Source: Candidatus Limnocylindrales bacterium (GTDB lineage: Bacteria; Chloroflexota; Limnocylindria; Limnocylindrales; CSP1-4). From it: a stretch of 64,000 bases of DNA. The translations under genes and the position numbers were made by a program. Below the pieces are notes generated by a model. The model had not been told where the DNA came from and did not search any database. It saw only the letters and a list, made by a program, of their open reading frames with translations. This document shows, piece by piece, positions 43,982 to 56,771 of this stretch (its first letter is position 1; the number at the start of each line of letters is the position of its first letter). Where the stretch lies: assembly GCA_049520815.1 (NCBI GenBank), contig JBEKPL010000002.1, positions 14,654-78,653 of the forward strand, in the 5' to 3' direction.

Positions 43982-44731
43982 CTACTGCATCACCAGGCCG
44001 CCGTCGACCGCCAGAACCTGGCCGGTGATGTAGCTCGCCTCATCGGAAGCGAGGAAGGTGACCGTCGCAGCTATCTCCTCGGGCGTCCCGAAGCGTCCAA
44101 GCGGGGTCGCTGCCTTGATCTGGTCGGTCAGGGCCGCGGGCAGGTCCTTGGTCAGCTCGGTCACGACGAAACCGGGAGCCACGGCGTTGCAGGTGATGCC
44201 GCGCGAGGCCACCTCGCGGGCCGTCGCCTTGGTCAGGCCGATCAGGCCGGCCTTGGACGACGAGTAGTTGGCCTGGCCCATCTGGCCGGCCTGGCCCGAA
44301 ACGCTGGACATGTTGATGATCCGGCCGGCATGGGCCTTGAGCATCGGGCGGACGGCGGCCTTGATCATGTAGAAGGCGCCGAAGAGATTGACCTCCAGGA
44401 CCTTGCGCCAGTCGTCGATGGGCATCCGCATGATCAGGTCGTCGCGGGTGATGCCGGCGTTGTTGACCAGGATGTCGATCTTGCCGAAGGCACCGACAAC
44501 CGTCGCGACGGCCTTCACGCAGGCATCGGGGTCCGTCACGTCCGCGGCGATGTAGATGGCTCGACGGCCGAGGGCTTTGATCTCGGCGACTGTCGCCTCG
44601 GCCACTTCCGGACGGCCGATGTCGACGAAGGCGACGTCGGCGCCCTGGCGGGCGAGGTTCAGGCAGATGGCCTTGCCGAGACCTCGTGCGCCGCCCGTGA
44701 CGAGCGCGGATTTGCCGGTCAGGTCGATCAT
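43982..44731 (-). CDS. fabG: 3-oxoacyl-[ACP] reductase
   Basis: Motifs 'GKSALVTGGARGLGKAI', 'NNAG' and 'YSSSKAG'. ATG 44731 is preceded by GAAGGGAG. The ORF extension to 44983 is rejected. Confidence 0.9.
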   Translation of the reverse strand: MIDLTGKSALVTGGARGLGKAICLNLARQGADVAFVDIGRPEVAEATVAEIKALGRRAIYIAADVTDPDACVKAVATVVGAFGKIDILVNNAGITRDDLIMRMPIDDWRKVLEVNLFGAFYMIKAAVRPMLKAHAGRIINMSSVSGQAGQMGQANYSSSKAGLIGLTKATAREVASRGITCNAVAPGFVVTELTKDLPAALTDQIKAATPLGRFGTPEEIAATVTFLASDEASYITGQVLAVDGGLVMQ

Positions 44732-44798
44732 GATTGGCTCCCTTCTGCTCGAATTCCGGTCCGGCTGGTTCGAGCCCCCTCCAGCGTGGGCCTCTACC

Positions 44799-46049
44799 TC
44801 ATCGCTTGGGCCGGGTAGCGGCGGCGCCGCTGCCGGCGCCGGAGACCGCTGCGTCGGAGATCGTCGTGGTTGAGCGGGCGTCCAGCCTGGGGCGGCGGCC
44901 GTTGCCGGCCGCGTTGCCGGCGGCCTTCGCAGGCTCTTCGAGGAGCCACTCCAGGGCCGGTGGGAACGGATTGGCCGGCTCAATGCCGGGGTCCAAGATG
45001 CGGATATCCTGCGGTCGAATGTGCTCCGAGCGCAGACGATCTGCAGGGTCGGCGGTCCACTCCAGCGCCACGGCGCCGGCGGTGCCGCCCGCGCCGAATG
45101 CGACGAGCACGACTCGGTCGCCCTTGTGGATGCGCCCTTCCGCCACAGCTTCAGACAGGGCGATCGGAACCGATGCGGCGGAGGTGTTGCCGTAGCGGTC
45201 GATGTTCAGGAGGACCTTCTCCATCGGGAAACCGAGCGCTTTGGCGGTCGCCTCGATGATTCGGGAGTTGGCCTGGTGCGGCACGACGAGATCGACGTCT
45301 TCGAGAGCCAGACCGGCGTTCTCCAGAGCTCGAAGGGTAGTCGCGGTCAGCTTCCGCACCGCCAGCTTGAAGGTCTCCCCGCCCTTCATGCGCATGTAGT
45401 GCTCGCGAGCGGCGACCGTCTCGACCGTACTGGGACGGGCCGAAGCTCCACCCGGGATCCAGATCGAGTACGTGGCGGCAGTGTCAGTGGTCATCTCGAT
45501 GCCGAGGGTTCCGCCAGGCTCATCCGACGCCGAGAGCACGGTCGCACCGGCGCCGTCGCCGAAGAGAACGCAGGTGGCGCGATCGGCGAAGTCGGTACAA
45601 CGGCTCATCGTCTCCGAGCCGATGACCAGCGCATGCTTGCCCAGCCCACTGGCGAGATAGGCGTGGGCCATGGCATGACCGAAGACGTAGCCCGAGCAGG
45701 CCGCTGCCAGATCCATGGCTGCGGCCCGGGTGTTGCCAATGGCCTGCTTGACCAGCACCGCGGCCGAGGGAAGCGGGTAGTCCGGAGTGAGCGTGCCTAC
45801 GAGGATCAGGTCGATGTCGTCGGGTTGCAGACCGGCAGTGGCGATGGCCCGCAGGCCCGCTATTGCGCCCATGCTGGCTGTGGTCTCGTCGGGACCGGCG
45901 ATGCGGCGCTCGCGAATGCCGGTGCGACTGGCGATCCACTCGTCGGAGGTCTCGACCATCTTCTCGAGATCGGCGTTGCTCAGAACGTAGCGAGGGGTGT
46001 AGGCACCCCACCCGGTCACGCGTACACCGAACGTTGAACGCGACATCAC
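44799..46049 (-). CDS. fabH: 3-oxoacyl-[ACP] synthase III with a ~90-aa C-terminal extension
   Basis: Motifs 'AAACSGYVFG' (Cys), 'PHQANSRII' and 'GNTSAASVP'. The canonical end is at '..AVALEW', and 88 more residues follow it. Confidence 0.88.
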   Translation of the reverse strand: MMSRSTFGVRVTGWGAYTPRYVLSNADLEKMVETSDEWIASRTGIRERRIAGPDETTASMGAIAGLRAIATAGLQPDDIDLILVGTLTPDYPLPSAAVLVKQAIGNTRAAAMDLAAACSGYVFGHAMAHAYLASGLGKHALVIGSETMSRCTDFADRATCVLFGDGAGATVLSASDEPGGTLGIEMTTDTAATYSIWIPGGASARPSTVETVAAREHYMRMKGGETFKLAVRKLTATTLRALENAGLALEDVDLVVPHQANSRIIEATAKALGFPMEKVLLNIDRYGNTSAASVPIALSEAVAEGRIHKGDRVVLVAFGAGGTAGAVALEWTADPADRLRSEHIRPQDIRILDPGIEPANPFPPALEWLLEEPAKAAGNAAGNGRRPRLDARSTTTISDAAVSGAGSGAAATRPKR

Positions 46050-46594
46050 GGTTCGACCTCAATCAGCGGCTGCTTCGCCTTGACCAGCTTTCCTGACTCG
46101 GCGACCACGCGCACGACTCTCCCAGCCTGGTCCGACTTGATCTCGTTGAATAGCTTCATGGCCTCGATCAGGCCGATGACGTCCCCCACCTTGACGTGCT
46201 GTCCGACGCCGGTGTAAGGCGGCGAGGCCGGTGTCGGAGCCGCATAGAAGATGCCCGTCAGCGGCGCCTTCACTACCTTCACCGTCGAAACCGGAGCGGG
46301 GTCGGCCTGAGGGGCCGCCGCCGCGCCGCCGGCCGGATCCGCGCCCGCGGCGGGAGTCACGGCAACGGCCGCTGCCGACGGCGCCAGCGCCGCGGGCTTG
46401 CGCAGGACGATGCCCGTCTCGCCGGCCTCGACTTCCAGCTCGACCAGATCGCTCCGCTCCAGGAGTGCGCCGAGCCGATCGACCAGGCCCAGCAACGCTA
46501 CGGTCTCCTCGGACATGACCGGCTCGCCGGCCTCGGTTCTCTCGGGGTTCGCCCCTGTAGGCAGGCCGGGCGCTTCGTCGTGGCGCTCGCTCAT
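46046..46594 (-). CDS. accB: Biotin carboxyl carrier protein (bona fide, with the EAMK biotinylation motif)
   Basis: Motif 'VGDVIGLIEAMKLFNEIKSD'. ATG 46594 is preceded by GAGGGAGGG. Its stop overlaps the fabH start. Confidence 0.9.
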   Translation of the reverse strand: MSERHDEAPGLPTGANPERTEAGEPVMSEETVALLGLVDRLGALLERSDLVELEVEAGETGIVLRKPAALAPSAAAVAVTPAAGADPAGGAAAAPQADPAPVSTVKVVKAPLTGIFYAAPTPASPPYTGVGQHVKVGDVIGLIEAMKLFNEIKSDQAGRVVRVVAESGKLVKAKQPLIEVEP

Positions 46595-46604
46595 CGTCCC
46601 TCCC

Positions 46605-47870
46605 TCACTCGGCCCAGCGCCGGAAGACCAGGGCGCTGTTCTGGCCGCCGAAGCCGAAGGAATTCGAGACCGCGACATCCATTGCCCGGCGGCGGGCGTG
46701 GTTCGGCGTCAGATCCAGCCCGGCCGCGGCTTCGTCGGGATCGTCGAGGTTGATCGTCGGCGGCACGATCCCGGTTCGAATGCTCATGATCGTGGCGATG
46801 GCCTCGATGGCGCCTGCCGCGCCCATGGTGTGGCCGAACAAGCTCTTGTTGGCGGTCACGCTCACCTGACCGGCCCGCTCGCCGAAGAGCGTCCTGATGG
46901 CTTCGAGCTCGCGCGGATCGCCCTCCGGCGTAGACGTGGCATGGGCGTTCACCATATCCACATCATCTACCGTGAGGCCCGCCTTCTCCAGGGCGCAGCG
47001 AATGGCCCGGACCGCACCCGCGCCCCCAGGCGCCGGGAGAGTGATGTGCGAGGCGTCGGCAGTGGCTCCGTAGCCCACCATCTCCGCCAGCGGCTCCGCC
47101 CCGCGGGCTCGAGCATGATCGAGCGACTCCAGCACCACCACACCGGCGCCTTCGCCGATGACGAAGCCATCACGGCCGCGGTCGAAGGGGCGCGAGGCGC
47201 GCTCGGGCTCGTCGTTGCGAGTGGACAGGGCCCGCATCGCCGCGAACGCACCTATCAGCGCCTCGTGTCCGGGGGCTTCGGCGCCGCCGGCCAGCATCAC
47301 GTCCGCGTCGCCGCGGCGGATGATCTCCCAGGCCTCGCCGATGGCGTGACCGCCTGTCGAGCAGGCGGAGACGACGCTGAAGTTGGGGCCCTGCGGCCCA
47401 AAGACGATGGCGATCACGCCCGCGGCCAGGTTGCTGATGGCCATCGGGATGAGGAAGGGGGACATTCGATCCGGCCCCTTCTCGGCCATGAGCAGGACCT
47501 GGTCGGCCAGGGTTCGAATGCCTCCGATGCCGGTCCCGACCACGACGCCGGTCCGCTCAGCCTCCAGACCCTCGAGTCGCGCTGGGAGCCCGGCCTGGTC
47601 CATTGCCTGGCGGGCCGCCACGAGCGCTAACTGGACGTACCGATCGTTGCGTCGCTGGTCCTTGCGGTCGAGGACCGCGGAGGGGTCGAAATCCTTGACC
47701 TCGGCGGCGATGCGCGTGGTCAGACGCGACGGGTCGAACTGCGTGATCGGGCCGACGCCGGATCGGCCGGCTACCATCGCCTCCCAGGTGGACGGAAGGT
47801 CGAGTCCGAGCGAGGTTACCGCACCCATTCCGGTGACGACGACGCGAGGCTGGCCGTTGGTCGGACTCAT
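46605..47870 (-). CDS. fabF: 3-oxoacyl-[ACP] synthase II
   Basis: Motifs 'RVVVTGMGAVTSLG', 'ACSTGGHAIGEA', 'HATSTPEGD' and 'GHTMGAAG'. ATG 47870 forms an ATGA overlap with the upstream stop. Confidence 0.92.
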   Translation of the reverse strand: MSPTNGQPRVVVTGMGAVTSLGLDLPSTWEAMVAGRSGVGPITQFDPSRLTTRIAAEVKDFDPSAVLDRKDQRRNDRYVQLALVAARQAMDQAGLPARLEGLEAERTGVVVGTGIGGIRTLADQVLLMAEKGPDRMSPFLIPMAISNLAAGVIAIVFGPQGPNFSVVSACSTGGHAIGEAWEIIRRGDADVMLAGGAEAPGHEALIGAFAAMRALSTRNDEPERASRPFDRGRDGFVIGEGAGVVVLESLDHARARGAEPLAEMVGYGATADASHITLPAPGGAGAVRAIRCALEKAGLTVDDVDMVNAHATSTPEGDPRELEAIRTLFGERAGQVSVTANKSLFGHTMGAAGAIEAIATIMSIRTGIVPPTINLDDPDEAAAGLDLTPNHARRRAMDVAVSNSFGFGGQNSALVFRRWAE

Positions 47871-48610
47871 CGGACGAGCTTCCCCGTGCGAATCGTGGCG
47901 GCGCGATACACATCGCCGGGCAGGCCGCGCACCGTGAGGGCGTCCGAGACGGCCATGACGTCGTAGGTCGTCCGGCGGATCTCGGCTTTGATCTGCCCGT
48001 CCTCGATCTCGATCAGCGCCCAGCTGGCCGAGGGATCGCCGTCGAAGACGTACCCGGCACTGCCGTCGTTGACGATGGTCCGCCAGCCGACCTCGCGGAC
48101 CTCCGGCGTGTGAGTATGGCCGCAGACGATGACCTTGGCGTCCGTGCGGCTGACGCGGTCGATGATCACGACCGGATCGAGGTCCGCGGGGAAGCCGTCG
48201 GTCAGCGAACCCGGCGAGGCGTGGCAGAAGAGGATCAGGTCGTCTCCGACCCGCAGCCGTCGCTCCCACGGGAGGCGGCGCAGGTAGTCCACGCCGTCGT
48301 CGCCGATCTGGTCCCTGGCCCAGTCCGCTGCGACCTGGTACGAGTCGGGAGTTCCTTCGATGAACCACGGAAACGCGGCCGTGAAGTCGCCGTCGGCGAC
48401 GGCCACGTCCGCGTTGCCGAGCGTGACGTAGGCGCCGGCTCGCTCGAGCTCGCGGACCAGGGCTAGCGTCCCGACCGGATCCGGTCCGTTGAAGACCAGG
48501 TCCCCGCAGATCGCCACGTAGTCGGGGCGAGCGGCATCGACGGCCTTGCGCACGGCTTCGAGCGCGAGCCGGTTACCGTGGATGTCGGACAGGGCGGCGA
48601 TGCGAGCCAT
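47867..48610 (-). CDS. Metallophosphoesterase (YfcE/MJ0936-like calcineurin-fold phosphodiesterase)
   Basis: Motifs 'ALSDIHGN', 'ICGDLV', 'GNAD' and 'VCGHTH'. Its start overlaps the fabZ stop by 1 nt, and its stop overlaps the fabF start. Confidence 0.8.
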   Translation of the reverse strand: MARIAALSDIHGNRLALEAVRKAVDAARPDYVAICGDLVFNGPDPVGTLALVRELERAGAYVTLGNADVAVADGDFTAAFPWFIEGTPDSYQVAADWARDQIGDDGVDYLRRLPWERRLRVGDDLILFCHASPGSLTDGFPADLDPVVIIDRVSRTDAKVIVCGHTHTPEVREVGWRTIVNDGSAGYVFDGDPSASWALIEIEDGQIKAEIRRTTYDVMAVSDALTVRGLPGDVYRAATIRTGKLVR

Positions 48611-49083
48611 CAGCGCAGAGCGCTCTCGGGGGCGATGATGAAGCTGAGCTTGGCGTCGCAGGCCACGTCCCCGTCGACCGTCGCCACCCCATGACCCCGG
48701 CCGAACTTGCTGCCGAGCCGTTCCATCGTCACTTCCAGCCGGAGCTGGTCGCCCGGCGTGACGATTCTCTTGAAGCGGCACTCGTCTATCGCGGCAAAGA
48801 GTCCGAGCCGATCGCCGAAGCCTGGCTGCTGGGCCACGAACACGCCCATCGTCTGGGCCAGGGCCTCGATCTGGAGCACGCCCGGCATGATCGGCTGACC
48901 CTGGAAGTGGCCCTGGAAGAACCACTCCGTGGCCGTCACGGACTTGAGGCCCACGATCCGCTTGGCCTCCTGGTCGTACTCGACGATGCGATCGACGAGA
49001 AGGAACGGCCAGCGGTGCGGGATGAGCTTCTCGATCTGGCGAGTGGTCAGGATCGGCTCGTTCGTCGCGGCGGTGTCGGTCAC
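48610..49083 (-). CDS. fabZ: 3-hydroxyacyl-[ACP] dehydratase
   Basis: Motifs 'LIPHRWPFLLVDRIVEY' and 'FFQGHFQGQPIMPGVL'. GTG start. Confidence 0.92.
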   Translation of the reverse strand: MTDTAATNEPILTTRQIEKLIPHRWPFLLVDRIVEYDQEAKRIVGLKSVTATEWFFQGHFQGQPIMPGVLQIEALAQTMGVFVAQQPGFGDRLGLFAAIDECRFKRIVTPGDQLRLEVTMERLGSKFGRGHGVATVDGDVACDAKLSFIIAPESALR

Positions 49084-49113: not shown

Positions 49114-50478
49114 TCAGCGATTGCCGGCGGCGACGAACGGAGCGCTGCCGACGCGGTCGAGCAGGTTCGTCGTCACCTTGCCGTCGATGAAGATCTGATT
49201 GGCGAGGATCGCGCGGTGCAACTCGATGTTGGTCGTGACACCATCGACGAGCAGTTCGCGCAGCGCGGCGTCGCCGCGGGCGATGGCCGACGGCCGATCC
49301 GGAGCCCAGACGGAGAGCTTGCCGAGAAGGGAGTCGTAGTAGGGTGGGATCTCATAGCCCGGATAGAGGTGTGAATCCACTCGAACGCCAGGCCCGCCCG
49401 GGGCGAGGTAGGCATCGACCCGACCGCCCTGCGGCTTGAAGTCCTTGCCCGGATCCTCGGCGAGGATGCGGAACTCGATGGCGTGACCGCGCGAGACGAC
49501 GTCAGCCTGAGTCAGGCCCAAGGGCTCGCCGGCCGCGATCTTGATCTGCAGGGCCACCAGGTCGATGCCGGTACAGAGTTCCGTGATGGGGTGCTCCACC
49601 TGGACGCGGCAGTTGATCTCGATGAAGTACGCGTCGCCCTTGGAGTCGACGAGGAACTCGAGGGTGCCCAGGTTCTCGTAGCCGGCTGCAGCGATAGCCC
49701 GAACGGCACGTTCGGCCAGGTCCTGGCGGGCGGTATCAGAGAGAGCCGGGCTGGGCGTCTCCTCGATGACCTTCTGATGTCGCCGCTGTACCGAGCAGTC
49801 GCGCTCGCCCATGTGGACGGCGTTGCCGAAATGGTCCACGGCCACCTGGATCTCGATGTGGCGGTTGTCGTCGAGGAACTTCTCCATGTACAGCGCGTCG
49901 TCGCCGAAGGCCGCTTTGGCCTCGGAGCGGCTGATCTTGAGAGAGCCCTCCAGCTCGCGCGGCGTCCGCACCAGGCGCATCCCCTTGCCGCCGCCGCCGG
50001 CCGAGGGCTTGATCATGACCGGGTAGCCGATGCGCTCGGCCTCCTCCAGAGCATGAGCCTCATCGCGCAGCATGCCCGAGCCCGGAATGGTGGGCAGGCC
50101 GTGCGACCCGAGCAGCCGGCGAGTGGCCTCCTTGGAAGCGAAGCGCTCGAGAACCTCCGCCGGCGGGCCGATGAACGTCAGGTCGTGGGCTCGAACGACG
50201 TCGGCGAAGCCTTCGTCCTCCGCGAGAAACCCGTAGCCGGGGTGAATGGCGTCGCAACCGGTCACGATCGCGGCGGAGATGACCGCCGGCGCCGACAGGT
50301 AGCTGTGCCTGGCGTCGGCCGGGCCGATGCAGACGGCTTCGTCGGCCAGCTGAGCGGCCAGGCCGTCCCGATCCGCCTCACTGTAGGCCACGACCGCACC
50401 GATGCCGAGCATGCGGCAGGCGCGCAGGATTCGCAGGGCGATCTCGCCGCGGTTCGCGATCAGGACCTTGGTGAACAT
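49114..50478 (-). CDS. accC: Acetyl-CoA carboxylase biotin carboxylase subunit
   Basis: N-terminus 'MFTKVLIANRGEIALRILRACRMLGI' with the ATP-grasp core. Length is 454 aa. Confidence 0.95.
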   Translation of the reverse strand: MFTKVLIANRGEIALRILRACRMLGIGAVVAYSEADRDGLAAQLADEAVCIGPADARHSYLSAPAVISAAIVTGCDAIHPGYGFLAEDEGFADVVRAHDLTFIGPPAEVLERFASKEATRRLLGSHGLPTIPGSGMLRDEAHALEEAERIGYPVMIKPSAGGGGKGMRLVRTPRELEGSLKISRSEAKAAFGDDALYMEKFLDDNRHIEIQVAVDHFGNAVHMGERDCSVQRRHQKVIEETPSPALSDTARQDLAERAVRAIAAAGYENLGTLEFLVDSKGDAYFIEINCRVQVEHPITELCTGIDLVALQIKIAAGEPLGLTQADVVSRGHAIEFRILAEDPGKDFKPQGGRVDAYLAPGGPGVRVDSHLYPGYEIPPYYDSLLGKLSVWAPDRPSAIARGDAALRELLVDGVTTNIELHRAILANQIFIDGKVTTNLLDRVGSAPFVAAGNR

Positions 50479-51122
50479 CAGGCTTTTCCGACGGCGGCCG
50501 GCTGGCGCTCGGCCCTGGGGCCGTCGAGCTTCTCGACCCGTTCAGGCGGCTCGATCAGAACCAGATCCTGACCGTACTCGACTGCCTCGCCGGCATCGGC
50601 CAGGCTCGCTCCGACGAGGCCATCCAGTGGCGCGACCACGTCCTGCTGGACTCCGAGCACGTCGACCCAGCCGATGCGGTCGCCGGCCCGGACGGGCGTC
50701 CCGATCGCTAGATCGCGGCGCGGGTGGTAAATGCCCACGGCCGGAGAAGTTGCCGCAATGCGACCCGGCTCCACCCTGGCTGCCACTTCGTCGTCCTCGT
50801 GCCGCCTGTCTCGGTCTTCGGTCCCCCGCACGTGGCTTACGACTGGCCGTCCCGACGGAAGGCCGTGTCCGGCGTGGATCTCGACCGGACCCCTGGCCGC
50901 CGAGCGGCGGCCCTCTTCGACGCTGGGCGGCCTGCGCAGGCGCGCCTTCCAGCCATTCTGGCGAACCTCTATCTCACCCAATCCGCCGGCGGCGAGCCTG
51001 GCGATCAGAGCCGGCAGGACCTCGTCGGCCAGCCGGCCGATGGCATCGTGATCGCGCTGGATCCGAAGAGCGTGATCCGCATCGGGCCGGCTGACGATGG
51101 CAGTCTTCTCGCGGGCGGGCAT
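50478..51122 (-). CDS. BCCP-like protein lacking the biotinyl-lysine (biotin/lipoyl-attachment-domain paralogue)
   Basis: 'SPAVGIYHP..VRAGDRIGWVDVLGVQQDVVAPLDGLV..YGQDLVLIE' aligns residue by residue with accB 'VGDVIGLIEAMKLFNEIKSDQAGRV', with Gly in place of the biotinyl Lys. A strong GAGGAGG precedes the ATG. Its stop overlaps the accC start. Confidence 0.75.
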   Translation of the reverse strand: MPAREKTAIVSRPDADHALRIQRDHDAIGRLADEVLPALIARLAAGGLGEIEVRQNGWKARLRRPPSVEEGRRSAARGPVEIHAGHGLPSGRPVVSHVRGTEDRDRRHEDDEVAARVEPGRIAATSPAVGIYHPRRDLAIGTPVRAGDRIGWVDVLGVQQDVVAPLDGLVGASLADAGEAVEYGQDLVLIEPPERVEKLDGPRAERQPAAVGKA

Positions 51123-51125
51123 TGC

Positions 51126-52112
51126 CTACACCTCCTCGCGGCCGGACGAACCGCCGCGCCTCGCTCCGGGGAACGCGGGCATGGACGGCCGACCGGTGAG
51201 TAGACCACGTAGCCGATCCGCGATGCCGATCCGCTCCGTGGGAGCGGCCGACCGATCGGCCACGGTGAACGGGCCATAAGCCCGGTATCTCTTGAAGCGA
51301 GCCTCCACCAGCTCGTCGAGCGGCATGCGGCCGAGCGCATCGAGCTGTTCGATCACAGCCTCCTTGATGCGCCTGGCCGTCTCGGCCGGGTCCGTGTGGG
51401 CTCCTTCGCCGGGCTCCGGAATGACCGCGTCCACGATGCCGAGCTCCTGCTGCTCGCCGGCGGTGACCTTCATCGCGACGGCCGCCTGCTGCGATTGCTC
51501 GGCCGAACGCCACAGGATGGTGGCGCAGCCTTCGGGGCTGATGACCGAGTAGATCGAATTCTCGAGAGCCAGCACGACATCGCCGACCGCCAGCCCGAGC
51601 GCACCGCCTGAGCCGCCTTCGCCGGTGATGATCGCCACGATCGGAGTTCGGAGATGGGTCATCAACCCGACCGACTTGGCGATGGCTTCGGCTATGCCGC
51701 GTTCTTCGGCCGCGGCACCCGGGAAGGCCCCCTGGACGTCGACGAAGGTGAGAACCGGCATGGCGTAGCGCTCGGCCAGGTCCATGACGCGCATCGCCTT
51801 GCGATAGCCCTCCGGGTGGGGCAGGCCGAAGTTGCGGCGGATGTTCTCCTCGGTGTCCTGGCCTTTCTGGAAACCGATGACGACGATGCGCCGCCCCGCG
51901 ATCCGAGCCAGGCCCGCCACTACCGCGGAGTCGTCGCCGAAGAGCCGGTCGCCGTGCAGCTCGATGAACTCGTCGGCCATGACCTTGAGCAGCTCGAGCG
52001 TGTGCGGGCGCTTCAGGTTGCGGGCCTGCTGGACGTGGGCCCAGACCGCGGCCGTCACGTCTTCCGCCTCGCCTTCCGCGGCGTGGCCGCGGCCCAGAAG
52101 CCGATCAACCAC
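51126..52112 (-). CDS. accA: Acetyl-CoA carboxylase carboxyltransferase alpha subunit
   Basis: Motifs 'ELHGDRLFGDDSAVVAGLARI..GFQKG', 'GLPHPEGYRKA' and 'IITGEGGSGGAL'. GTG 52112 is preceded by GGAGG. The longer ORF to 52430 is rejected. Confidence 0.9.
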   Translation of the reverse strand: MVDRLLGRGHAAEGEAEDVTAAVWAHVQQARNLKRPHTLELLKVMADEFIELHGDRLFGDDSAVVAGLARIAGRRIVVIGFQKGQDTEENIRRNFGLPHPEGYRKAMRVMDLAERYAMPVLTFVDVQGAFPGAAAEERGIAEAIAKSVGLMTHLRTPIVAIITGEGGSGGALGLAVGDVVLALENSIYSVISPEGCATILWRSAEQSQQAAVAMKVTAGEQQELGIVDAVIPEPGEGAHTDPAETARRIKEAVIEQLDALGRMPLDELVEARFKRYRAYGPFTVADRSAAPTERIGIADRLRGLLTGRPSMPAFPGARRGGSSGREEV

Positions 52113-53079
52113 GGGGGGCCTCCCCGCGAGACCGGCTGGCCTCGCCGTTGCGTGACTCGCCGCTCTCGCCGCCAAGTGCCTCGGTGAGGGCCGAGAGCAA
52201 CGAGCGCGACCTGGGGGCGGGCGCCGCAAGAGGCTCGCCGGCGCCCGCCTCCGGCGGAGCGGCCAGGAACGCGAGCAGGGCGATGATCTCGTCGCGCAGG
52301 CGGGGCCGGGTGACGATCCTGTCCACGAACCCGTGGCTGAACCAGAACTCGGCGCGCTGGTAGCCGGGCGGCAATTCCTCGCCGATAGTCCCGGACGAGA
52401 CGCGGTCGCCGGCGAACTGGATGAGCGCATTCGGCTCGGCGATGTTCACGTCGCCGACCGCGGCGAAGGAGGCGAAGACGCCGCCCGTGGTTGGGTCGGT
52501 CAAGACCGAGATGAACGGCACGCGAGCCGCCCGGAGTCTCTCCACGACGCCCATCGTCTTGACGAGCTGCATGAGCGAGTACGTCCCCTCCTGCATGCGA
52601 GCCCCGCCGGAGGACGAGACGATGATGAGAGGGATGCGCTCCGCCAGGGCGGCCTCGCCGGCCCGCGCCACCTTCTCGCCCACGACCGAGCCCATCGAAC
52701 CGCCGATGAACCCGAAGTCCATGACGCACATCGACACCCGCTTGCCGCCCATGGTGGCCAGGCCCCAAACGGCCGCATCGCGCAGGCCAGTGGCAAGCTG
52801 GGCGGCCATGAGCCGATCCGGATAGGACTTCAGGTCCGTGAAGCCCAGGGCGTCCACCGGCTGCAGATCATCGTCTCTCTCTACGAACGAGCCGCCGTCG
52901 ACGAGCTGCTCGATGCGGGACTTGGCCGAGATCCGGAAGTGATGCCCGCAATGAGGACAGACGCGCAGCGTCTTCTCGAGCTGCTTGTTGAACAGCATCT
53001 CCGCGCAGTCCGGGCACTTGGTCCACAAGTCCGGCCGGTAGGCGTCGCGGCGGGGGCGGAAGGGCAACCTAACCGGCAT
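52105..53079 (-). CDS. accD: Acetyl-CoA carboxylase carboxyltransferase beta subunit
   Basis: Zn-finger 'CPDCAEMLF..CPHCGHH' and 'FGFIGGSMGSVVGEK'. ATG 53079 overlaps the upstream stop by 1 nt. Confidence 0.92.
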   Translation of the reverse strand: MPVRLPFRPRRDAYRPDLWTKCPDCAEMLFNKQLEKTLRVCPHCGHHFRISAKSRIEQLVDGGSFVERDDDLQPVDALGFTDLKSYPDRLMAAQLATGLRDAAVWGLATMGGKRVSMCVMDFGFIGGSMGSVVGEKVARAGEAALAERIPLIIVSSSGGARMQEGTYSLMQLVKTMGVVERLRAARVPFISVLTDPTTGGVFASFAAVGDVNIAEPNALIQFAGDRVSSGTIGEELPPGYQRAEFWFSHGFVDRIVTRPRLRDEIIALLAFLAAPPEAGAGEPLAAPAPRSRSLLSALTEALGGESGESRNGEASRSRGEAPRG

Positions 53080-53699
53080 CAGGACACGACCTCCAGGATT
53101 CCGTCGACGACCCCGGTTCGGCGGCGACCGGACCCCGTGGCACGATTGTGGGCCGCCCGTGCGGCACGGCCCATCCGGCCCGACGCCGGGTGCGAATGGC
53201 GCCAGGCAACGTAGACCGCGCCGATCGAGATCGCGGACGCGACGCCCACGCCGCCGACTATCAGCGGCCGTGACTGGCGCGCGGCCATCTCGGGGAGGCG
53301 GCGCAGCGCCCACGCTGGGGAACCCGCGTCCGGCTCCGTCAGAGCGGTGGCGGGCGGCATGGCCGTGGTCACGGGGCCTTCCCCCGCAGGCGAGCGGCTA
53401 CGGTAAGCGGCCATCGTCCCCGGCGTCGCGGCCGCAGCCTCGGTCTCGGCGACCTCTATGTGGAGGCCGGCCCGGAGCCGCATCGCGCCCGCCGCGAGGC
53501 GGGCGGCGAGCGCCTCCTCGAAGCGGAATGAGGGGTGGACTCGGACCAGATCCGCCCGCAACTCGCGCGCCGCGACGCGTATCTGCGGGTCGATGTCGAC
53601 GTCCACGGGGAATTCCGAGGCGCGCCGCTCGTCGGCGGCCATGAGCTCGTCCAGATACCGCTCAGTGCGCCGCGCGTCCCGCATTCCGCCGCCGAGCAT
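53079..53699 (-). CDS. Hypothetical single-pass membrane protein, putative anti-sigma factor
   Basis: It lies immediately downstream of the ECF sigma and overlaps its stop. There is one TM segment near the C-terminus ('PLIVGGVGVASAISIGAVYVAW'). No HxxxCxxC motif is present, so the function is inferred from position only. Confidence 0.45.
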   Translation of the reverse strand: MLGGGMRDARRTERYLDELMAADERRASEFPVDVDIDPQIRVAARELRADLVRVHPSFRFEEALAARLAAGAMRLRAGLHIEVAETEAAAATPGTMAAYRSRSPAGEGPVTTAMPPATALTEPDAGSPAWALRRLPEMAARQSRPLIVGGVGVASAISIGAVYVAWRHSHPASGRMGRAARAAHNRATGSGRRRTGVVDGILEVVS

Positions 53700-54349
53700 C
53701 AGCTCAGTTGCCCCCGCAGGTCGTTTGCCACGGAGCGCAGGGCACGATGCAGCAGCACCCGAACCGCTCCCTCGGAGCGACCCAGTATGGCCGCGATCTC
53801 GGCCGTCGACATCTCGTCGACGAAGCGGAGGATGACCGCCCGGCGGCGATCCTCCGGCAGGCGTGCGACTGCCTGCCAGGCCGCGCTGCCGGCCTCACGA
53901 GCGGCCGCGGTCTCCGCCACGTCGTCCGGGGCGGAGAGCTCCGCAGCTTCCTCGAGAGGGGTGGCGTGGCGGCGTCGGTCCCGGCGTCGCTCGTTCGCGA
54001 CGATGTTGTGGGCGATGCGGAAGAGCCAGACGCGGAACGTGGAGATGTCCGCGGGGTCCGCCCCGCCTTCGATCGTGACCGAACGCGAGGCAATGAAGGC
54101 GTCGACGCGCTCCTCGAAGCGGGGCAGGCCGGCCAGGGCCTGCATGAAGACACGCTCGCTCGCGTCTTCCGCGGCATGGTGGTCCCGGAGCTCGTAGTAC
54201 GCGTAGCTATACACCTGGGCCAGGTACTTCCTATACAGGGCATCGAAGCGAGTTGGATCGCGCCGGGCCGCCTCTACCAGGCCGCGGTCGCGGTCCAGTC
54301 GGGCGGGACGGGTGCCCTCCTGCGCTCTACTCAACACAAGCCGGCTCAA
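53699..54349 (-). CDS. ECF-type RNA polymerase sigma-70 family factor
   Basis: Region 2 'FDALYRKYLAQVYSYAYYEL..AEDASERVF..FRVWLFRIAHNIVANERRR'. Region 4 'LPEDRRRAVILRFVDEMSTAEIAAILGRSEGAVRVLLHRALR'. The start is uncertain (TTG 54349 or GTG 54337), and the ORF is open to 54430. Confidence 0.8.
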   Translation of the reverse strand: MSRLVLSRAQEGTRPARLDRDRGLVEAARRDPTRFDALYRKYLAQVYSYAYYELRDHHAAEDASERVFMQALAGLPRFEERVDAFIASRSVTIEGGADPADISTFRVWLFRIAHNIVANERRRDRRRHATPLEEAAELSAPDDVAETAAAREAGSAAWQAVARLPEDRRRAVILRFVDEMSTAEIAAILGRSEGAVRVLLHRALRSVANDLRGQLS

Positions 54350-54353
54350 TTCG

Positions 54354-55166
54354 TTACACCCCCGCCGTCGATGCGAGCCAGGCGTGGGCGACGTCCCCCG
54401 CGAGAATCTCCCGCTCGACGCCCGGCGCATCTGGGTCCTCGATCAACAGCGCCCCCGACGCCCCATCCACGCCGACCGCGCGAACCGACTCGCTCGAGCC
54501 ATCGGGCAGCTCCAACCTGACCATCCGATCCGTGGTCGCCTGGCGATCGTGCCAGCCCGCCACGTCGAAATGCCCGTCGCGCAGGGCCAGCACGCGCGGC
54601 TCCAGCCGAAGCAGGAACGCGGTCAGCAACTCGTCGGAGTCGATCGAGCGTCCCCGCGAGGCTTCGCGCAGGCTCGTCATCGAGCCCGCCAGCTCCGCCG
54701 GGAACCGTTCGCGCGGCCAGTCCGCGTTCATGCCGATCCCGACCACGGCCTGGACGGCCGCCGTGCCCACGCCCTCGCTCTCGCCCAGAACCCCGCCCAA
54801 CTTGCGCACGCCGGCGTCCCCTGCCACGACGATGTCGTTGGGCCATTTGAGGCGGAGCACGCCGATGGGCAGCCCGGCCACTTCCTCGGCGGCGTCGGCC
54901 ATGGCCAGAGCCACGACCGCACTGAGGCGCCACAGCCGGTCGGGCGGCAGGTAGCTCGGGCGGAAGCCGAGCGACACCAGCAGGGCGGCGCCGCCCGGCG
55001 CGCTCCAGGTTCGGCCCAAGCGCCCCCGCCCGGCCGTCTGCTCGTCGGCGACGGCCACACAGACCTCGGGCGTTCCTCCGGTCATCCAGTTCCGAACGAT
55101 GTCGTTGGTCGAGGGGACCGACCGGAAACGCTCGTGTCGCGAGAAGAACGCTGCGTTCGTCGTCAC
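54354..55166 (-). CDS. birA: Biotin-[acetyl-CoA-carboxylase] ligase (group I, no HTH domain)
   Basis: Motifs 'VADEQTAGRGRLGRTWSAPGG' and 'LKWPNDI'. The GTG start overlaps the lysC stop (GTGA). Confidence 0.9.
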   Translation of the reverse strand: MTTNAAFFSRHERFRSVPSTNDIVRNWMTGGTPEVCVAVADEQTAGRGRLGRTWSAPGGAALLVSLGFRPSYLPPDRLWRLSAVVALAMADAAEEVAGLPIGVLRLKWPNDIVVAGDAGVRKLGGVLGESEGVGTAAVQAVVGIGMNADWPRERFPAELAGSMTSLREASRGRSIDSDELLTAFLLRLEPRVLALRDGHFDVAGWHDRQATTDRMVRLELPDGSSESVRAVGVDGASGALLIEDPDAPGVEREILAGDVAHAWLASTAGV

Positions 55167-56470
55167 GCGCCCGACTTCGGGGTCCCGCCGGATCCCCCAC
55201 CGGCCTCGGCGGCCACCTCGCCCCCGAGCATCGGCTCCGGCTCCTCGAGAGCGAATGCCTTGTGCAATGCCCGAACGGCGGTCTCGACCTGATCCTCGGC
55301 GATCATGCAGGTGATCCGGATCTCCGATGTCGAGATGATCTCGATGTTCACTCCGGCTTCGGCCAGCGCGGCGAACATGCGCGAGGCGTAGCCCGGGGCG
55401 TTCTGGATGCCGGCTCCCACGATCGAGACCTTGGCCATCGCCGAGTCGGTCGTCATCTCGCGAAAGCCGAGCTCACGAACGATCGGCTCGAGGATACGCT
55501 TGGTCTTCGCCAGGTCGCCTCGAGTGATGGTGAAGCTCAGGTCCGTCGTGCCGTGGTGGCCGACGTTCTGGACGATCGTGTCGACGTTGATGCCGGCCTC
55601 GGCCAGGGGCGCGAATACGGCGTGAGCGACGCCAGGCCGGTCCGGGACCTCAACGAGGGTCACCTTGGCCACGTTGCGGTCGTGGGCCAGCCCGCGAACC
55701 TTGTTGCGCTGCTCCACGAACAGGTCCTCCTTGATAAGCGTGCCGGGGACGTCCTCGAACGAGCTCAGCACCTCGATTACGACGTCGTTGACCCAGCCGA
55801 GCTCGACGGCCCGGACCTGCACCACCTGTGCGCCCTGGTGCGCGAGTTCCATCATCTCCTCGTAGGAGACGACCGGCAGCTGGCGAGCCTCGGGCACGAG
55901 ACGCGGGTCGGCCGTGTAGATGCCTCGGACGTCGGTAAAGATCTGGCAGCGATCGGCTTCGAGCGCGGCCGCCAGCGCGACCGCCGTGGTGTCCGAGCCG
56001 CCACGGCCCAGCGTGGTGATCTCGGACAGGTGCGGATCTCGCACGCTCTGGCCCTGGAAGCCGGCGACGATGACGACTCGACCCGCCTCGTTCTCGCTGA
56101 CGATTCGCTTGGTGTCTATGCCGGCGATGCGGGCCTTGCCGTAGTTGCCGTCTGTGGTGATACCCGCCTGAGCGCCGGACAAAGCGATCGCCGGCACGCC
56201 CAGTGCGTGCAGGGCCATCGACACGAGCGTCGCGCTCTGGTGCTCGCCTGTCGCGAGGAGCATGTCCAGCTCGCGCGGATCCGGTTCGTCAGTGATCGCG
56301 CCGGCCAGGGCGAGCAGCTCGTCGGTGGTATCGCCCATCGCCGAGACGACGACGACGAGGTCGCAGCCGGTCGCCCGCTCGCGGGCGATGCGCGCCGCAA
56401 CGCGACGGATCCGGTCGGCGTTGGCGACGGACGAGCCACCGAACTTCTGAACGACGAGGGGTTTGGACAT
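55163..56470 (-). CDS. lysC: Aspartate kinase
   Basis: 'MSKPLVVQKFGGSSVANADRIRRVA' with C-terminal ACT repeats. ATG 56470; the ORF extension to 56566 is rejected. Confidence 0.93.
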   Translation of the reverse strand: MSKPLVVQKFGGSSVANADRIRRVAARIARERATGCDLVVVVSAMGDTTDELLALAGAITDEPDPRELDMLLATGEHQSATLVSMALHALGVPAIALSGAQAGITTDGNYGKARIAGIDTKRIVSENEAGRVVIVAGFQGQSVRDPHLSEITTLGRGGSDTTAVALAAALEADRCQIFTDVRGIYTADPRLVPEARQLPVVSYEEMMELAHQGAQVVQVRAVELGWVNDVVIEVLSSFEDVPGTLIKEDLFVEQRNKVRGLAHDRNVAKVTLVEVPDRPGVAHAVFAPLAEAGINVDTIVQNVGHHGTTDLSFTITRGDLAKTKRILEPIVRELGFREMTTDSAMAKVSIVGAGIQNAPGYASRMFAALAEAGVNIEIISTSEIRITCMIAEDQVETAVRALHKAFALEEPEPMLGGEVAAEAGGGSGGTPKSGA

Positions 56471-56477
56471 GGCGGGC

Positions 56478-56483
56478 ATTCTA
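56478..56483 (-). promoter_or_regulatory. Candidate -10 box TAGAAT placed 7 nt before the lysC ATG (leaderless-type arrangement)
   Basis: The minus strand reads 'gggctgcTAGAATgcccgccATGtcc'. No Shine-Dalgarno is present. Confidence 0.3.
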
Positions 56484-56771
56484 GCAGCCCGAGGCGGCCC
56501 TTCTCGACACCCCGGGGCGCAGCCGGCGGGACTCCTCAATGGCCCGGAAGCGCATCGGCGCTTCATCGCGGCTCACGGGGCGAAGTGGGCCATCAGCCGT
56601 CCTGCCGCGCCAGACCGCGCCGAGCAGCGGGCCACGGCGAGCCGTTACCTCCGCCGGCCAGAGTCTTGACCGCGACGCCATGCCTCAGCTGTGCGACCAT
56701 TCCCGGACGCGGCGCCCTTCACGACGAGGCTCCGCGACGCGGCGAGGCTCGAGACGGTCACCGGAGGCACG

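What the first reader, a model, noticed from the sequence alone, without database searches (positions are those of the whole stretch)
50478..51122. Lysine-less BCCP paralogue sits in the accB slot directly upstream of accC
- **Fold.** The 214-aa product has a full BCCP layout. Its N-terminal segment 'LGEIEVRQNGWKARLRRP' parallels accB 'LVELEVEAGETGIVLRKP', and a C-terminal biotinyl-domain fold follows.
- **Missing lysine.** In a gap-free alignment with the true AccB of this window, the EAMK hairpin reads VDVLGV (DRIGWVDVLGVQQDVVAPLDG versus DVIGLIEAMKLFNEIKSDQAG). The modifiable Lys is therefore Gly, and the domain has no other Lys.
- **Position.** It has a strong RBS (GAGGAGG). It lies 3 nt after accA, and its stop overlaps the accC start by 1 nt. 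That is exactly where accB normally sits. The real accB has been displaced to between fabF and fabH.
- **Possible role.** Biotin-less BCCP look-alikes (BADC proteins) are known from plants as negative regulators of heteromeric ACCase. To my knowledge an equivalent built into a bacterial acc operon is not an established feature. It could act as a competitive or regulatory subunit of ACC.
Basis: partly seen in the sequence, partly recalled or inferred. Interest (0 to 1): 0.8.

Follow-up and report, generated by a model that had tools for sequence, protein, structure and literature searches.

The report
Biotin-less carrier-protein paralogue inside bacterial ACC operon
A whole class of soil and freshwater bacteria (Limnocylindria) has, between the acetyl-CoA carboxylase genes accA and accC, a conserved copy of the biotin carrier protein that cannot carry biotin, which is the bacterial counterpart of the plant 'BADC' subunits thought to be unique to plants.

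Summary

**What the gene is**
- ORF 50478-51122 (-) encodes a 214-aa protein built like AccB: an N-terminal helix plus beta-hairpin, a disordered linker and a C-terminal biotinyl-type barrel.
- The C-domain model has pLDDT 93-98. The best fold match is E. coli BCCP 1bdo.
- Four independent alignments place Gly157 where the biotinyl-Lys should be (VDVLGV against EAMKM). The folded domain has no Lys, and the BCCP 'thumb' is deleted.

**It is a conserved family, not an error or relic**
- All 377 family sequences held with this hairpin have Gly at that position.
- The two structured modules are under purifying selection (dN/dS about 0.2).
- In all 44 related genome loci and 5 more distant metagenome contigs the gene sits in the same accA-X-accC slot, wherever the contig extends that far.
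- A canonical EAMK AccB always lies between fabF and fabH. All loci are Chloroflexota/Limnocylindria.

**Relation to known proteins**
- By profile comparison X is equally distant from its co-resident AccB and from plant BADC proteins. BADCs also have Gly at the Lys position.
- I read this as an independent, convergent origin.

**Function (inferred, not shown)**
- Most likely a non-catalytic, stoichiometric fifth ACC subunit that docks on AccC and co-oligomerises with AccB.
- Whether it scaffolds or brakes the enzyme is open.
- I found no paper describing it.

The parts
50478..51122 (-). X: 214-aa lysine-less AccB/BCCP paralogue (whole CDS, stop included)
   Evidence: ORF. The family has 2850 hits in the word-indexed search and 128 50%-identity cluster representatives at E<=1e-30. 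hhalign to AccB gives 97-98% probability.
50934..51080 (-). N-terminal module, aa 15-63: long helix (15-46) plus beta-hairpin (50-55, 58-63). Equivalent to the AccB N-terminal alpha/beta/beta oligomerisation motif.
   Evidence: AF2 with 141 sequences, pLDDT about 85-88. Aligned to the E. coli BCCP N-terminus and to the local AccB. dN/dS 0.18.
50763..50933 (-). Disordered linker, aa 64-120. Charged and His/Arg-rich (IHAGHGLP, EDRDRRHEDDE), unlike the Ala/Pro linker of AccB.
   Evidence: pLDDT mostly below 50 from about aa 77 (block means 44-50; aa 61-70 averages 74). dN/dS 0.53. Composition and length variation.
50547..50762 (-). C-terminal biotinyl-type beta-barrel domain, aa 121-192. No Lys and no thumb.
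   Evidence: pLDDT 93-98. Foldseek: 1bdo E 3e-6, TM 0.79; P. horikoshii BCCP TM 0.86-0.90. Pfam Biotin_lipoyl only 13 bits, below the cut-off. dN/dS 0.22.
50649..50666 (-). Hairpin VDVLGV (aa 153-158). Gly157 (GGA, 50652-50654) replaces the biotinyl-Lys and Leu156 replaces Met.
   Evidence: Gly in 377 of 377 and Leu in 376 of 377 family members.
51131..51137 (-). Shine-Dalgarno GAGGAGG of X, inside the last codons of accA, 8 nt before the ATG
51126..52112 (-). accA (carboxyltransferase alpha). Probable GTG start at 52112 overlaps the accD stop. Its own stop lies 3 nt before the X start.
   Evidence: Pfam ACCA E 4e-112. Start candidate with a GGGGAGG RBS.
52105..53079 (-). accD (carboxyltransferase beta with Zn ribbon)
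   Evidence: Pfam Carboxyl_trans and Zn_ribbon_ACC. Start at 53079.
49114..50478 (-). accC (biotin carboxylase). Its ATG shares one base with the X stop.
   Evidence: NCBIfam PRK08591 634 bits. Junction CTGATG.
46046..46594 (-). True accB (182 aa from M29) with an EAMK hairpin and a thumb, between fabF and fabH
   Evidence: Pfam Biotin_lipoyl 52.7 bits and TIGR00531 105 bits. IEAMKLFNEIKSD is present in all 33 co-resident AccB sequences recovered with an intact C-terminus. Start.
43982..49083 (-). Rest of the co-directional cluster: fabZ 48610-49083, metallophosphoesterase 47867-48610, fabF 46605-47870, accB, fabH 44799-46049, fabG 43982-44731
   Evidence: Pfam. Overlapping or abutting ends. 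No terminator-like sites above chance. Same order in all related loci.
54354..55166 (-). Group-I biotin protein ligase (BirA-like, no HTH), a conserved neighbour upstream of the cluster
   Evidence: Pfam BPL_LplA_LipB. Present in the 33 related genome loci that extend far enough upstream and in 4 of the 5 metagenome contigs examined (absent from L046).

Best explanation

**Shown**
- X keeps both structured modules of AccB. These are the N-terminal helix plus beta-hairpin, which in E. coli BCCP oligomerises, and the biotinyl-type barrel, which in E. coli docks on biotin carboxylase.
- The carrier Lys is replaced by Gly and the thumb is removed, so X cannot be charged by BirA or carry CO2.
- X is under purifying selection.
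- X is always encoded between accA and accC with coupled translation signals, alongside a normal accB in the same gene string.

**Inferred**
- X is made in amounts similar to AccA and AccC.
- It joins the AccB oligomer through the shared N-terminal motif and parks its barrel on AccC, at the non-catalytic BCCP site seen in 4HR7 and the E. coli filament.
- In this way it organises or stabilises the BC-BCCP subcomplex and sets how many active swinging arms each complex has. This is the 'glue/cap' model proposed for plant BADC.
- The invariant hairpin (V-D/N-V-L-G-V-x-Q-D-V) implies that the hairpin tip still contacts a partner surface.
For: **Homology to AccB end to end**
- Profile against E. coli BCCP 4hr7_B, E 1.8e-5, covering residues 39-188.
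- hhalign against the co-resident AccB family, 97-98%.

**Structure**
- C-domain pLDDT 93-98 with top Foldseek hits to BCCP domains.
- N-terminal alpha/beta/beta module at pLDDT about 85-88.
- This matches the motif described for E. coli BCCP, which is proposed to oligomerise and tether BCCP, while the C-domain sits on BC and the AccD N-terminus (PMC11160672).

**Conservation**
- Gly in 377 of 377 sequences.
- dN/dS 0.18 and 0.22 in the two modules, against 0.53 and 0.74 in the linker and tail.

**Gene context**
- Fixed order accD-accA-X-accC-fabZ-mpe-fabF-accB-fabH-fabG in the 44 genome loci, as far as each contig extends.
- The same order in 5 metagenome contigs carrying other family members, including divergent cluster representatives.
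- RBS inside accA, a 3-nt gap, and a TGATG overlap with accC.
- No internal terminator signal above chance.

**Precedent**
- Plant BADC are Lys-less BCCP homologues that bind BC and BCCP and facilitate BC-BCCP assembly (PMC11926652).
- The algal BADC is stoichiometric with the CT subunits (PMC13585458).
Against: - There is no direct evidence of any protein-protein contact. Multimer modelling was not available.
- Pairwise BLASTP of X against AccB is insignificant. Homology rests on profiles and fold.
- X lacks the thumb, which in plants is the BCCP surface BADC is reported to touch and which in E. coli is linked to BCCP dimerisation. X may therefore behave differently from both BCCP and BADC.
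- The X linker is charged rather than Ala/Pro-rich, so its reach and dynamics differ from AccB.
- Tight co-expression is equally compatible with a built-in brake.
Confidence: 0.5

Rival explanations
1. Competitive brake (the original BADC model). X competes with holo-AccB for its sites on AccC and/or the carboxyltransferase. Because it carries no biotin, it lowers flux to malonyl-CoA. The His/Arg-rich linker or another signal (pH, PII, acyl-ACP) could modulate occupancy.
For: - The same structural evidence that X mimics BCCP.
- The invariant hairpin suggests it still enters a BCCP-binding pocket.
- BADCs were first characterised as negative regulators. Their BC occupancy is proposed to change with pH.
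- Many family members carry a His-Gly-rich linker motif.
Against: - X is co-operonic and translationally coupled with the very subunits it would inhibit, and it is universally retained. A permanently co-expressed inhibitor is an odd design unless its binding is conditional.
- No regulatory input is identifiable from the sequence.
- The His motif is not conserved across the wider family: 12 of 150 representatives have H.GH.
Confidence: 0.27
2. X works with a partner other than ACC. It might act as a decoy or adaptor for the neighbouring biotin protein ligase, for PII/GlnB, or for another biotin enzyme, or as a regulator of operon expression, as the AccB N-terminus does for accBC in E. coli.
For: - birA is a conserved neighbour.
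- E. coli AccB has regulatory roles in biotin synthesis and PII binding.
- Plant BADCs bind PII.
Against: - The BirA here is group I, with no DNA-binding domain (270 aa; Pfam match starts at residue 15). There is therefore no BirA-repressor circuit to modulate.
- X is inserted between accA and accC with coupled translation, not next to birA.
- No DNA- or RNA-binding feature was detected.
Confidence: 0.1
3. Non-functional relic. The ancestral accB lost its Lys after a second accB arose. The ORF survives only because its translation is needed to couple accC expression.
For: X occupies the classical accB position, and its stop overlaps the accC start.
Against: - Strong residue-level constraint: dN/dS about 0.2 in both folded modules.
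- 48 invariant positions in A1, and Leu-Gly at the hairpin tip invariant (376 and 377 of 377) across sequences down to about 37% identity.
- A confidently folded domain.
- A coupling-only ORF would not conserve its sequence.
Confidence: 0.03
4. X is still a carrier, using a different residue or cofactor or a Lys outside the canonical position.
For: About a quarter of family members have 1-2 Lys somewhere in the C-domain.
Against: - 271 of 374 members have no Lys in the domain at all, including the window protein.
- The hairpin tip is Gly in every member.
- No conserved Cys: 'VDCLGV' occurs only in a minority.
- Biotin and lipoate ligases require the hairpin Lys (established enzymology).
Confidence: 0.02

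Closest known systems
Plant and algal BADC proteins (biotin/lipoyl attachment domain-containing; Arabidopsis BADC1-3, Chlamydomonas Cre01.g037850)
   Same: - A BCCP homologue with an N-terminal motif, a disordered linker and a biotinyl-type domain.
- The biotinyl-Lys is lost, and in both families the Lys position is Gly preceded by Leu or Phe. BADC1 reads LHQLGTELPV and X reads VDVLGVQQDV.
- Both coexist with a catalytic BCCP.
- 'SPAVG.F/Y' and 'V.YG' motifs are shared.
- Profile similarity of X to BADC: 96.9%, E 2e-10.
   Different: - BADC is eukaryotic and plastid-targeted, encoded by dispersed nuclear genes. X is bacterial and embedded in the acc/fab operon.
- BADC keeps a long thumb-like insert, 16 residues where X has 7.
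- X is no closer to BADC than to bacterial AccB: hhalign scores 75.6 against 74.3, and AccB against BADC 71.2. Common descent is therefore not supported and convergence is the simpler reading.
- The function of X is untested.
Canonical bacterial AccB/BCCP (E. coli AccB, PDB 1bdo and 4hr7; the window's own AccB at 46046-46594)
   Same: - Three-part architecture, fold and position directly upstream of accC.
- About 31-35% identity in the C-domain.
- N-terminal alpha/beta/beta motif.
   Different: - EAMK becomes VLGV, so there is no biotin acceptor.
- A 6-residue deletion removes the thumb.
- The linker is charged rather than Ala/Pro-rich.
- X fails the curated HMM cut-offs: TIGR00531 20 bits against 115, and PF00364 13 bits against 22.
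Non-catalytic accessory subunits of actinobacterial acyl-CoA carboxylases (AccE/epsilon; MSMEG_0435-0436)
   Same: These are bacterial, non-catalytic proteins that tether or modulate biotin carboxylase/BCCP modules. AccE tethers AccA3, and MSMEG_0435-0436 sequesters BCCP biotin and lowers activity (PMC13012033).
   Different: They have unrelated folds: a small helical protein and KipA/KipI-like proteins. Neither is a BCCP paralogue, and they act on enzymes with fused BC-BCCP.
Thumbless biotinyl domains (Pyrococcus horikoshii BCCP, transcarboxylase 1.3S)
   Same: These are the best structural superpositions of the X barrel, TM 0.86-0.90. They have no thumb.
   Different: They retain the biotinyl-Lys and are true carriers.

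Membership tests
AccB/BCCP (functional biotin carboxyl carrier, TIGR00531) | Biotinyl/lipoyl-type flattened beta-barrel domain | tested here: met
   AF2 pLDDT 93-98. Foldseek top hits are BCCP domains (1bdo E 3e-6; 2ejf TM 0.90).
AccB/BCCP (functional biotin carboxyl carrier, TIGR00531) | N-terminal alpha/beta/beta motif, flexible linker and C-terminal domain | tested here: met
   The profile alignment to full-length E. coli BCCP spans both modules. hhalign to the local AccB runs end to end. The model shows H15-46, E50-55 and E58-63.
AccB/BCCP (functional biotin carboxyl carrier, TIGR00531) | (E/A)-M-K-(M/L) hairpin with the biotin-acceptor Lys | tested here: not met
   VDVLGV, with Gly157 at the Lys column in four independent alignments. 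Gly in 377 of 377 family members.
AccB/BCCP (functional biotin carboxyl carrier, TIGR00531) | Thumb protrusion typical of ACC-type BCCPs | tested here: not met
   A 6-residue gap in X opposite the AccB 'SP..sPPyV' segment. X has 7 residues where E. coli has 13 (sequences).
AccB/BCCP (functional biotin carboxyl carrier, TIGR00531) | Scores above the curated family thresholds | tested here: not met
   TIGR00531 20.1 bits (cut-off 115.2), PRK07051 21.7 (87), PF00364 13 (22.1). All 36 A1 members hit PF00364 only weakly.
AccB/BCCP (functional biotin carboxyl carrier, TIGR00531) | Biotinylated in vivo and shuttles CO2 between BC and CT | not testable with these tools
   Needs a streptavidin blot or MS and an enzyme assay. 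The sequence predicts a negative result.
BADC (plant/algal non-catalytic BCCP-like ACC subunits) | BCCP homologue lacking the biotinylation motif | tested here: met
   BADC is defined in this way in PMC11926652 and PMC12706156.
BADC (plant/algal non-catalytic BCCP-like ACC subunits) | Specific common ancestry with BADC (closer to BADC than to BCCPs) | tested here: inconclusive
   hhalign scores: X-BADC 75.6, X-AccB 74.3, AccB-BADC 71.2. Pairwise C-domain identity: 37% to BADC1 against 35% to E. coli AccB. There is no preferential affinity. No broad phylogeny was made.
BADC (plant/algal non-catalytic BCCP-like ACC subunits) | Plastid-lineage (Archaeplastida) distribution | tested here: not met
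   All 44 genome loci are Chloroflexota/Limnocylindria MAGs. Named metagenome members are mostly labelled Limnocylindria or Chloroflexota; three carry other phylum labels, and the one checked has the Limnocylindria gene order.
BADC (plant/algal non-catalytic BCCP-like ACC subunits) | Binds BC and BCCP and alters ACC assembly or activity | not testable with these tools
   Inferred only from architecture and operon position.

The most novel reading that the evidence does not exclude
Limnocylindria run a five-subunit bacterial ACC in which the two jobs of BCCP are split between two genes. The gene in the ancestral accB-accC slot became a dedicated docking and oligomerisation 'pseudo-carrier' (X). 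A second accB, between fabF and fabH, does the carboxyl shuttling. The same Met-Lys to Leu/Phe-Gly hairpin change arose independently in plant BADCs. This would make pseudo-BCCP subunits a recurrent solution for organising or throttling heteromeric ACC, and would give the contested BADC mechanism (glue or inhibitor) a simple bacterial model.
Probability: 0.35. Interest if true: 0.75.

Novelty: new variant of a known kind. Interest (0 to 1): 0.62.

Why it matters
- Heteromeric ACC is the committed step of fatty-acid synthesis, an antibiotic target and a metabolic-engineering bottleneck.
- Non-catalytic BCCP look-alikes (BADC) are regarded as a plant-specific layer of control. Their mechanism, inhibitor or assembly factor, is disputed.
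- X is a bacterial, operon-encoded and apparently independently evolved equivalent, fixed across a whole class. This shows the solution is not plant-specific.
- It offers a minimal system for reconstitution and structure work: five genes in one operon, with no transit peptides or isoforms.
- It bears on how the BCCP N-terminal oligomer and the 'parked' BCCP site on BC function.
- It flags a systematic mis-annotation. JGI and NCBI call these proteins 'biotin carboxyl carrier protein', so genome-scale models could count them as the functional AccB.

Tried and rejected
- **Pairwise BLASTP of X against the window's AccB** gave only noise (E 1.7). Homology needed profiles and fold.
- **Pfam and NCBIfam on the single sequence** gave sub-threshold hits only.
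- **Sequencing error or pseudogene:** rejected by family-wide conservation and dN/dS.
- **HlyD/RND barrel-sandwich hits** (PF13437, PF25917) reflect the shared hybrid-motif fold. I do not treat them as a functional lead, because the N-terminal module and the context are AccB-like.
- **Taxonomic breadth:**
  - Cluster look-ups returned few organism names.
  - A third homologue search with the most divergent members still returned mostly Limnocylindria/Chloroflexota labels.
  - Three odd MAG labels appeared (Sulfotelmatobacter, Methylomirabilota, Patescibacteria). The one checked has the full Limnocylindria synteny and is probably mis-binned.
- **Promoter and terminator scan:** nothing above chance. 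The single-operon reading rests on overlaps and small gaps only.
- **Papers not held:** the primary BADC paper (Salie 2016), Ye 2020 and the 2024 review on the evolution of ACC regulatory subunits. Any statement they make about prokaryotic BADC-like proteins could not be checked.
- **Not attempted:**
- **dS caveat:** dS is near saturation (median about 0.9-1.0), so dN/dS values are approximate.
Full report
**1. The observation**

The minus-strand ORF 50478..51122 starts with ATG and encodes 214 aa. The surrounding minus-strand genes are listed below in transcription order (Pfam/NCBIfam; starts).

| Gene | Coordinates |
|---|---|
| ECF sigma | 53699-54430 |
| Pfam-less ORF | 53079-53699 |
| accD | 52105-53079 |
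| accA | 51126-52112 |
| X | 50478-51122 |
| accC | 49114-50478 |
| fabZ | 48610-49083 |
| metallophosphoesterase | 47867-48610 |
| fabF | 46605-47870 |
| accB | 46046-46594 |
| fabH | 44799-46049 |
| fabG | 43982-44731 |

- X has the RBS GAGGAGG at 51131-51137, 8 nt before its ATG and inside the last codons of accA.
- The accA stop is 3 nt upstream of the X start.
- The X stop TGA shares its last base with the accC ATG.
- X contains four lysines (K6, K59, K198, K213). None lies in the folded C-terminal domain.

**2. Is it really a BCCP without the lysine?**

- The single sequence barely registers in curated libraries: PF00364 13 bits against a cut-off of 22, and TIGR00531 20 bits against 115. 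Pairwise BLASTP against the window's own AccB is noise.
- Profiles and structure are unambiguous.
  - A profile of 36 family members finds full-length E. coli BCCP (4hr7_B) as the best PDB sequence match (E 1.8e-5).
  - That alignment runs from the N-terminal motif to the C-terminus and puts 'vdvLGv' on 'veaMKM'.
  - hhalign of the X family (43 sequences from genome loci) against the AccB proteins of the same genomes gives 97-98% probability (E 2e-12 global, 5e-11 local). It again puts VDVLGV on IEAMKL and shows a six-residue deletion in X where AccB has its thumb.
- AlphaFold2 models the C-domain (121-192) at pLDDT 93-98, with L156-G157 as the hairpin turn.
- Foldseek's best PDB hits are the E. 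coli biotinyl domain (1bdo, E 3e-6, TM 0.79) and the thumbless P. horikoshii BCCP (TM 0.86-0.90).
- With a deeper alignment the N-terminal region folds as a long helix (15-46) followed by a beta-hairpin (50-55, 58-63) at pLDDT about 85-88.
- This is the alpha/beta/beta motif that the E. coli ACC filament study assigns to the first 30 residues of BCCP and proposes to oligomerise (PMC11160672).
- Residues 64-120 form a linker that is mostly modelled at low confidence (pLDDT below 50 from about residue 77).

**3. Not an accident of this genome**

- The word-indexed protein search found 2850 relatives.
- The exhaustive search of 50%-identity representatives found 128 clusters at E<=1e-30 and 351 at E<=1e-10.
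- Of all family sequences I hold that include the hairpin, 377 of 377 have Gly at the Lys column and 376 of 377 have Leu before it. 271 of 374 have no Lys anywhere in the domain.
- A scan of one genome per GTDB species returned 44 loci, all Chloroflexota MAGs, most labelled Limnocylindria or Limnocylindrales.
- Every locus, as far as its contig extends, has the order birA ... accD-accA-X-accC-fabZ-(phosphoesterase)-fabF-accB-fabH-fabG.
- Every co-resident AccB recovered with its C-terminus (33 sequences) carries IEAMKLFNEIKSD.
- Five metagenome contigs carrying other family members, including divergent cluster representatives, show the same order. In one of them accD and accA are fused.
- Nei-Gojobori dN/dS across the genome loci is 0.18 for the N-terminal module and 0.22 for the barrel. 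It is 0.53 for the linker and 0.74 for the tail, and AccB overall is 0.26. dS is close to saturation, so these are rough values.
- The gene is therefore a conserved, selected component of the acc/fab cluster of this bacterial class.

**4. How it most likely works**

*Shown:*
- X retains the two structured parts of AccB.
- It has lost the only residue that can accept biotin, and it has lost the thumb.
- It is encoded with coupled translation signals between accA and accC. The string of overlapping or abutting genes also holds the real accB, with no terminator-like signal above chance.

*Inferred:* X is produced together with, and in amounts similar to, the catalytic subunits and is part of the ACC complex.

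*Preferred model (about 0.5):* a scaffold.
- The N-terminal motif co-assembles with that of AccB.
- The barrel occupies the non-catalytic BCCP docking site on biotin carboxylase (4HR7 and the filament).
- This stabilises the BC-BCCP subcomplex and fixes the ratio of active carriers, as in the 'glue/cap' model for BADC (PMC11926652).

*Main rival (about 0.27):* a built-in competitive brake, the original BADC model. It could be tuned by pH or effectors through the charged, sometimes His-Gly-rich linker.

*Less likely readings:*
- A role with BirA, PII or operon regulation. The BirA here is group I, without a DNA-binding domain.
- A functionless relic kept for translational coupling, which the residue-level constraint contradicts.
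- A carrier using another residue. There is no conserved Lys or Cys.

The invariance of the hairpin itself suggests that the tip still fits a partner pocket.

**5. Comparison with what is known**

- The closest known kind is the plant and algal BADC family. I retrieved real BADC sequences and compared profiles.

| Comparison | hhalign score | Probability / E |
|---|---|---|
| X against BADC | 75.6 | 96.9%, E 2e-10 |
| X against local AccB | 74.3 | 97.1%, E 4.8e-11 (local mode) |
| AccB against BADC | 71.2 | 96.7%, E 3.6e-10 |

- C-domain identities are 37% to BADC1, 35% to E. coli AccB and 31% to the local AccB. X thus has no special affinity to BADC.
- BADC also has Gly at the Lys position, preceded by Leu or Phe (BADC1 LHQLGTELPV). 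BADC keeps a long thumb-like insert that X lacks.
- Given the phylogenetic gap (one Chloroflexota class against Archaeplastida), I read this as convergent evolution of a pseudo-BCCP. A proper phylogeny was not made.
- X works like a BADC but fails membership on distribution, and specific ancestry is not shown.
- X fails membership of functional AccB on the Lys, the thumb and the curated thresholds.
- Other bacterial non-catalytic carboxylase partners (AccE, MSMEG_0435-0436) are unrelated in fold.

**6. Novelty**

- Full-text searches for BADC with bacteria, for Lys-less or non-biotinylated BCCP-like proteins, and for Limnocylindria with fatty acid found no description of such a bacterial protein.
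- A 2025 paper states that BADC subunits are 'unique to the plant htACCase'.
- Public annotation calls these proteins 'biotin carboxyl carrier protein' or 'biotin/lipoyl-containing protein'. As a functional label the former is wrong.
- I rate it a new variant of a known kind: a bacterial, operon-embedded, thumbless, probably independently evolved BADC analogue.

**7. Verdict**

- Function is inferred. Interest is 0.62.

Noticed in passing
window 47867-48610 (-); same position in L001-L048: A calcineurin-like metallophosphoesterase (Metallophos_2, E 4e-20) is wedged between fabZ and fabF. Its start overlaps the fabZ stop. It is present at that position in the five metagenome contigs with gene calls, and a gap of matching size lies between fabZ and fabF in the genome loci. 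It has no obvious role in type II fatty-acid synthesis.
   Followed up: partly
window 53079-54430 (-): An ECF-type sigma factor (53699-54430) and a 206-aa ORF with no Pfam match (53079-53699, in the position of an anti-sigma factor) lie directly upstream of accD. Their ends touch or overlap. The same pair precedes accD in the related contigs, which suggests the acc/fab cluster may be under ECF control.
   Followed up: partly
window 54354-55166 (-) and 55163-56566 (-): A group-I biotin protein ligase (no HTH domain) overlaps the end of an aspartokinase gene. The neighbourhood hom-thrC-thrB-ask-birA upstream of the acc cluster recurs in L046 and L048, with birA missing from L046.
   Followed up: partly
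L047 4951-6861: In one divergent Limnocylindria contig, accD and accA form a single 636-aa fused ORF (Zn_ribbon_ACC + Carboxyl_trans + ACCA), still followed by X and accC.
   Followed up: no
window 50856-50879 (-), aa 82-89 of X; linker of family members: The X linker is highly variable in length (3-123 aa). Some members carry a 'QPGH(A/E)GHGHAP'-like His-Gly motif; in the window it reads IHAGHGLP. It could be a metal- or pH-sensitive element. H.GH is present in 50 of 120 close relatives but only 12 of 150 cluster representatives.
   Followed up: partly
P0413 / L048; P0455; P0488: NCBI 'MAG TPA' records assign some family members to Sulfotelmatobacter, Methylomirabilota or Patescibacteria. The contig checked (L048) has the complete Limnocylindria gene order, so these labels look like binning errors.
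   Followed up: partly
window 44799-46049 (-): FabH is 416 aa, with a roughly 80-residue low-complexity C-terminal extension that overlaps the fabG start region. FabH is 381-403 aa in the related contigs.
   Followed up: no
window 46046-46678 (-): The true AccB has about 25 extra residues (MSERHDEAPGLPTGANPERTEAGEPV) ahead of its alpha/beta/beta motif. The maximal ORF extends a further 28 codons into fabF. The RBS GGGAGGG favours the M29 start at 46594.
   Followed up: partly
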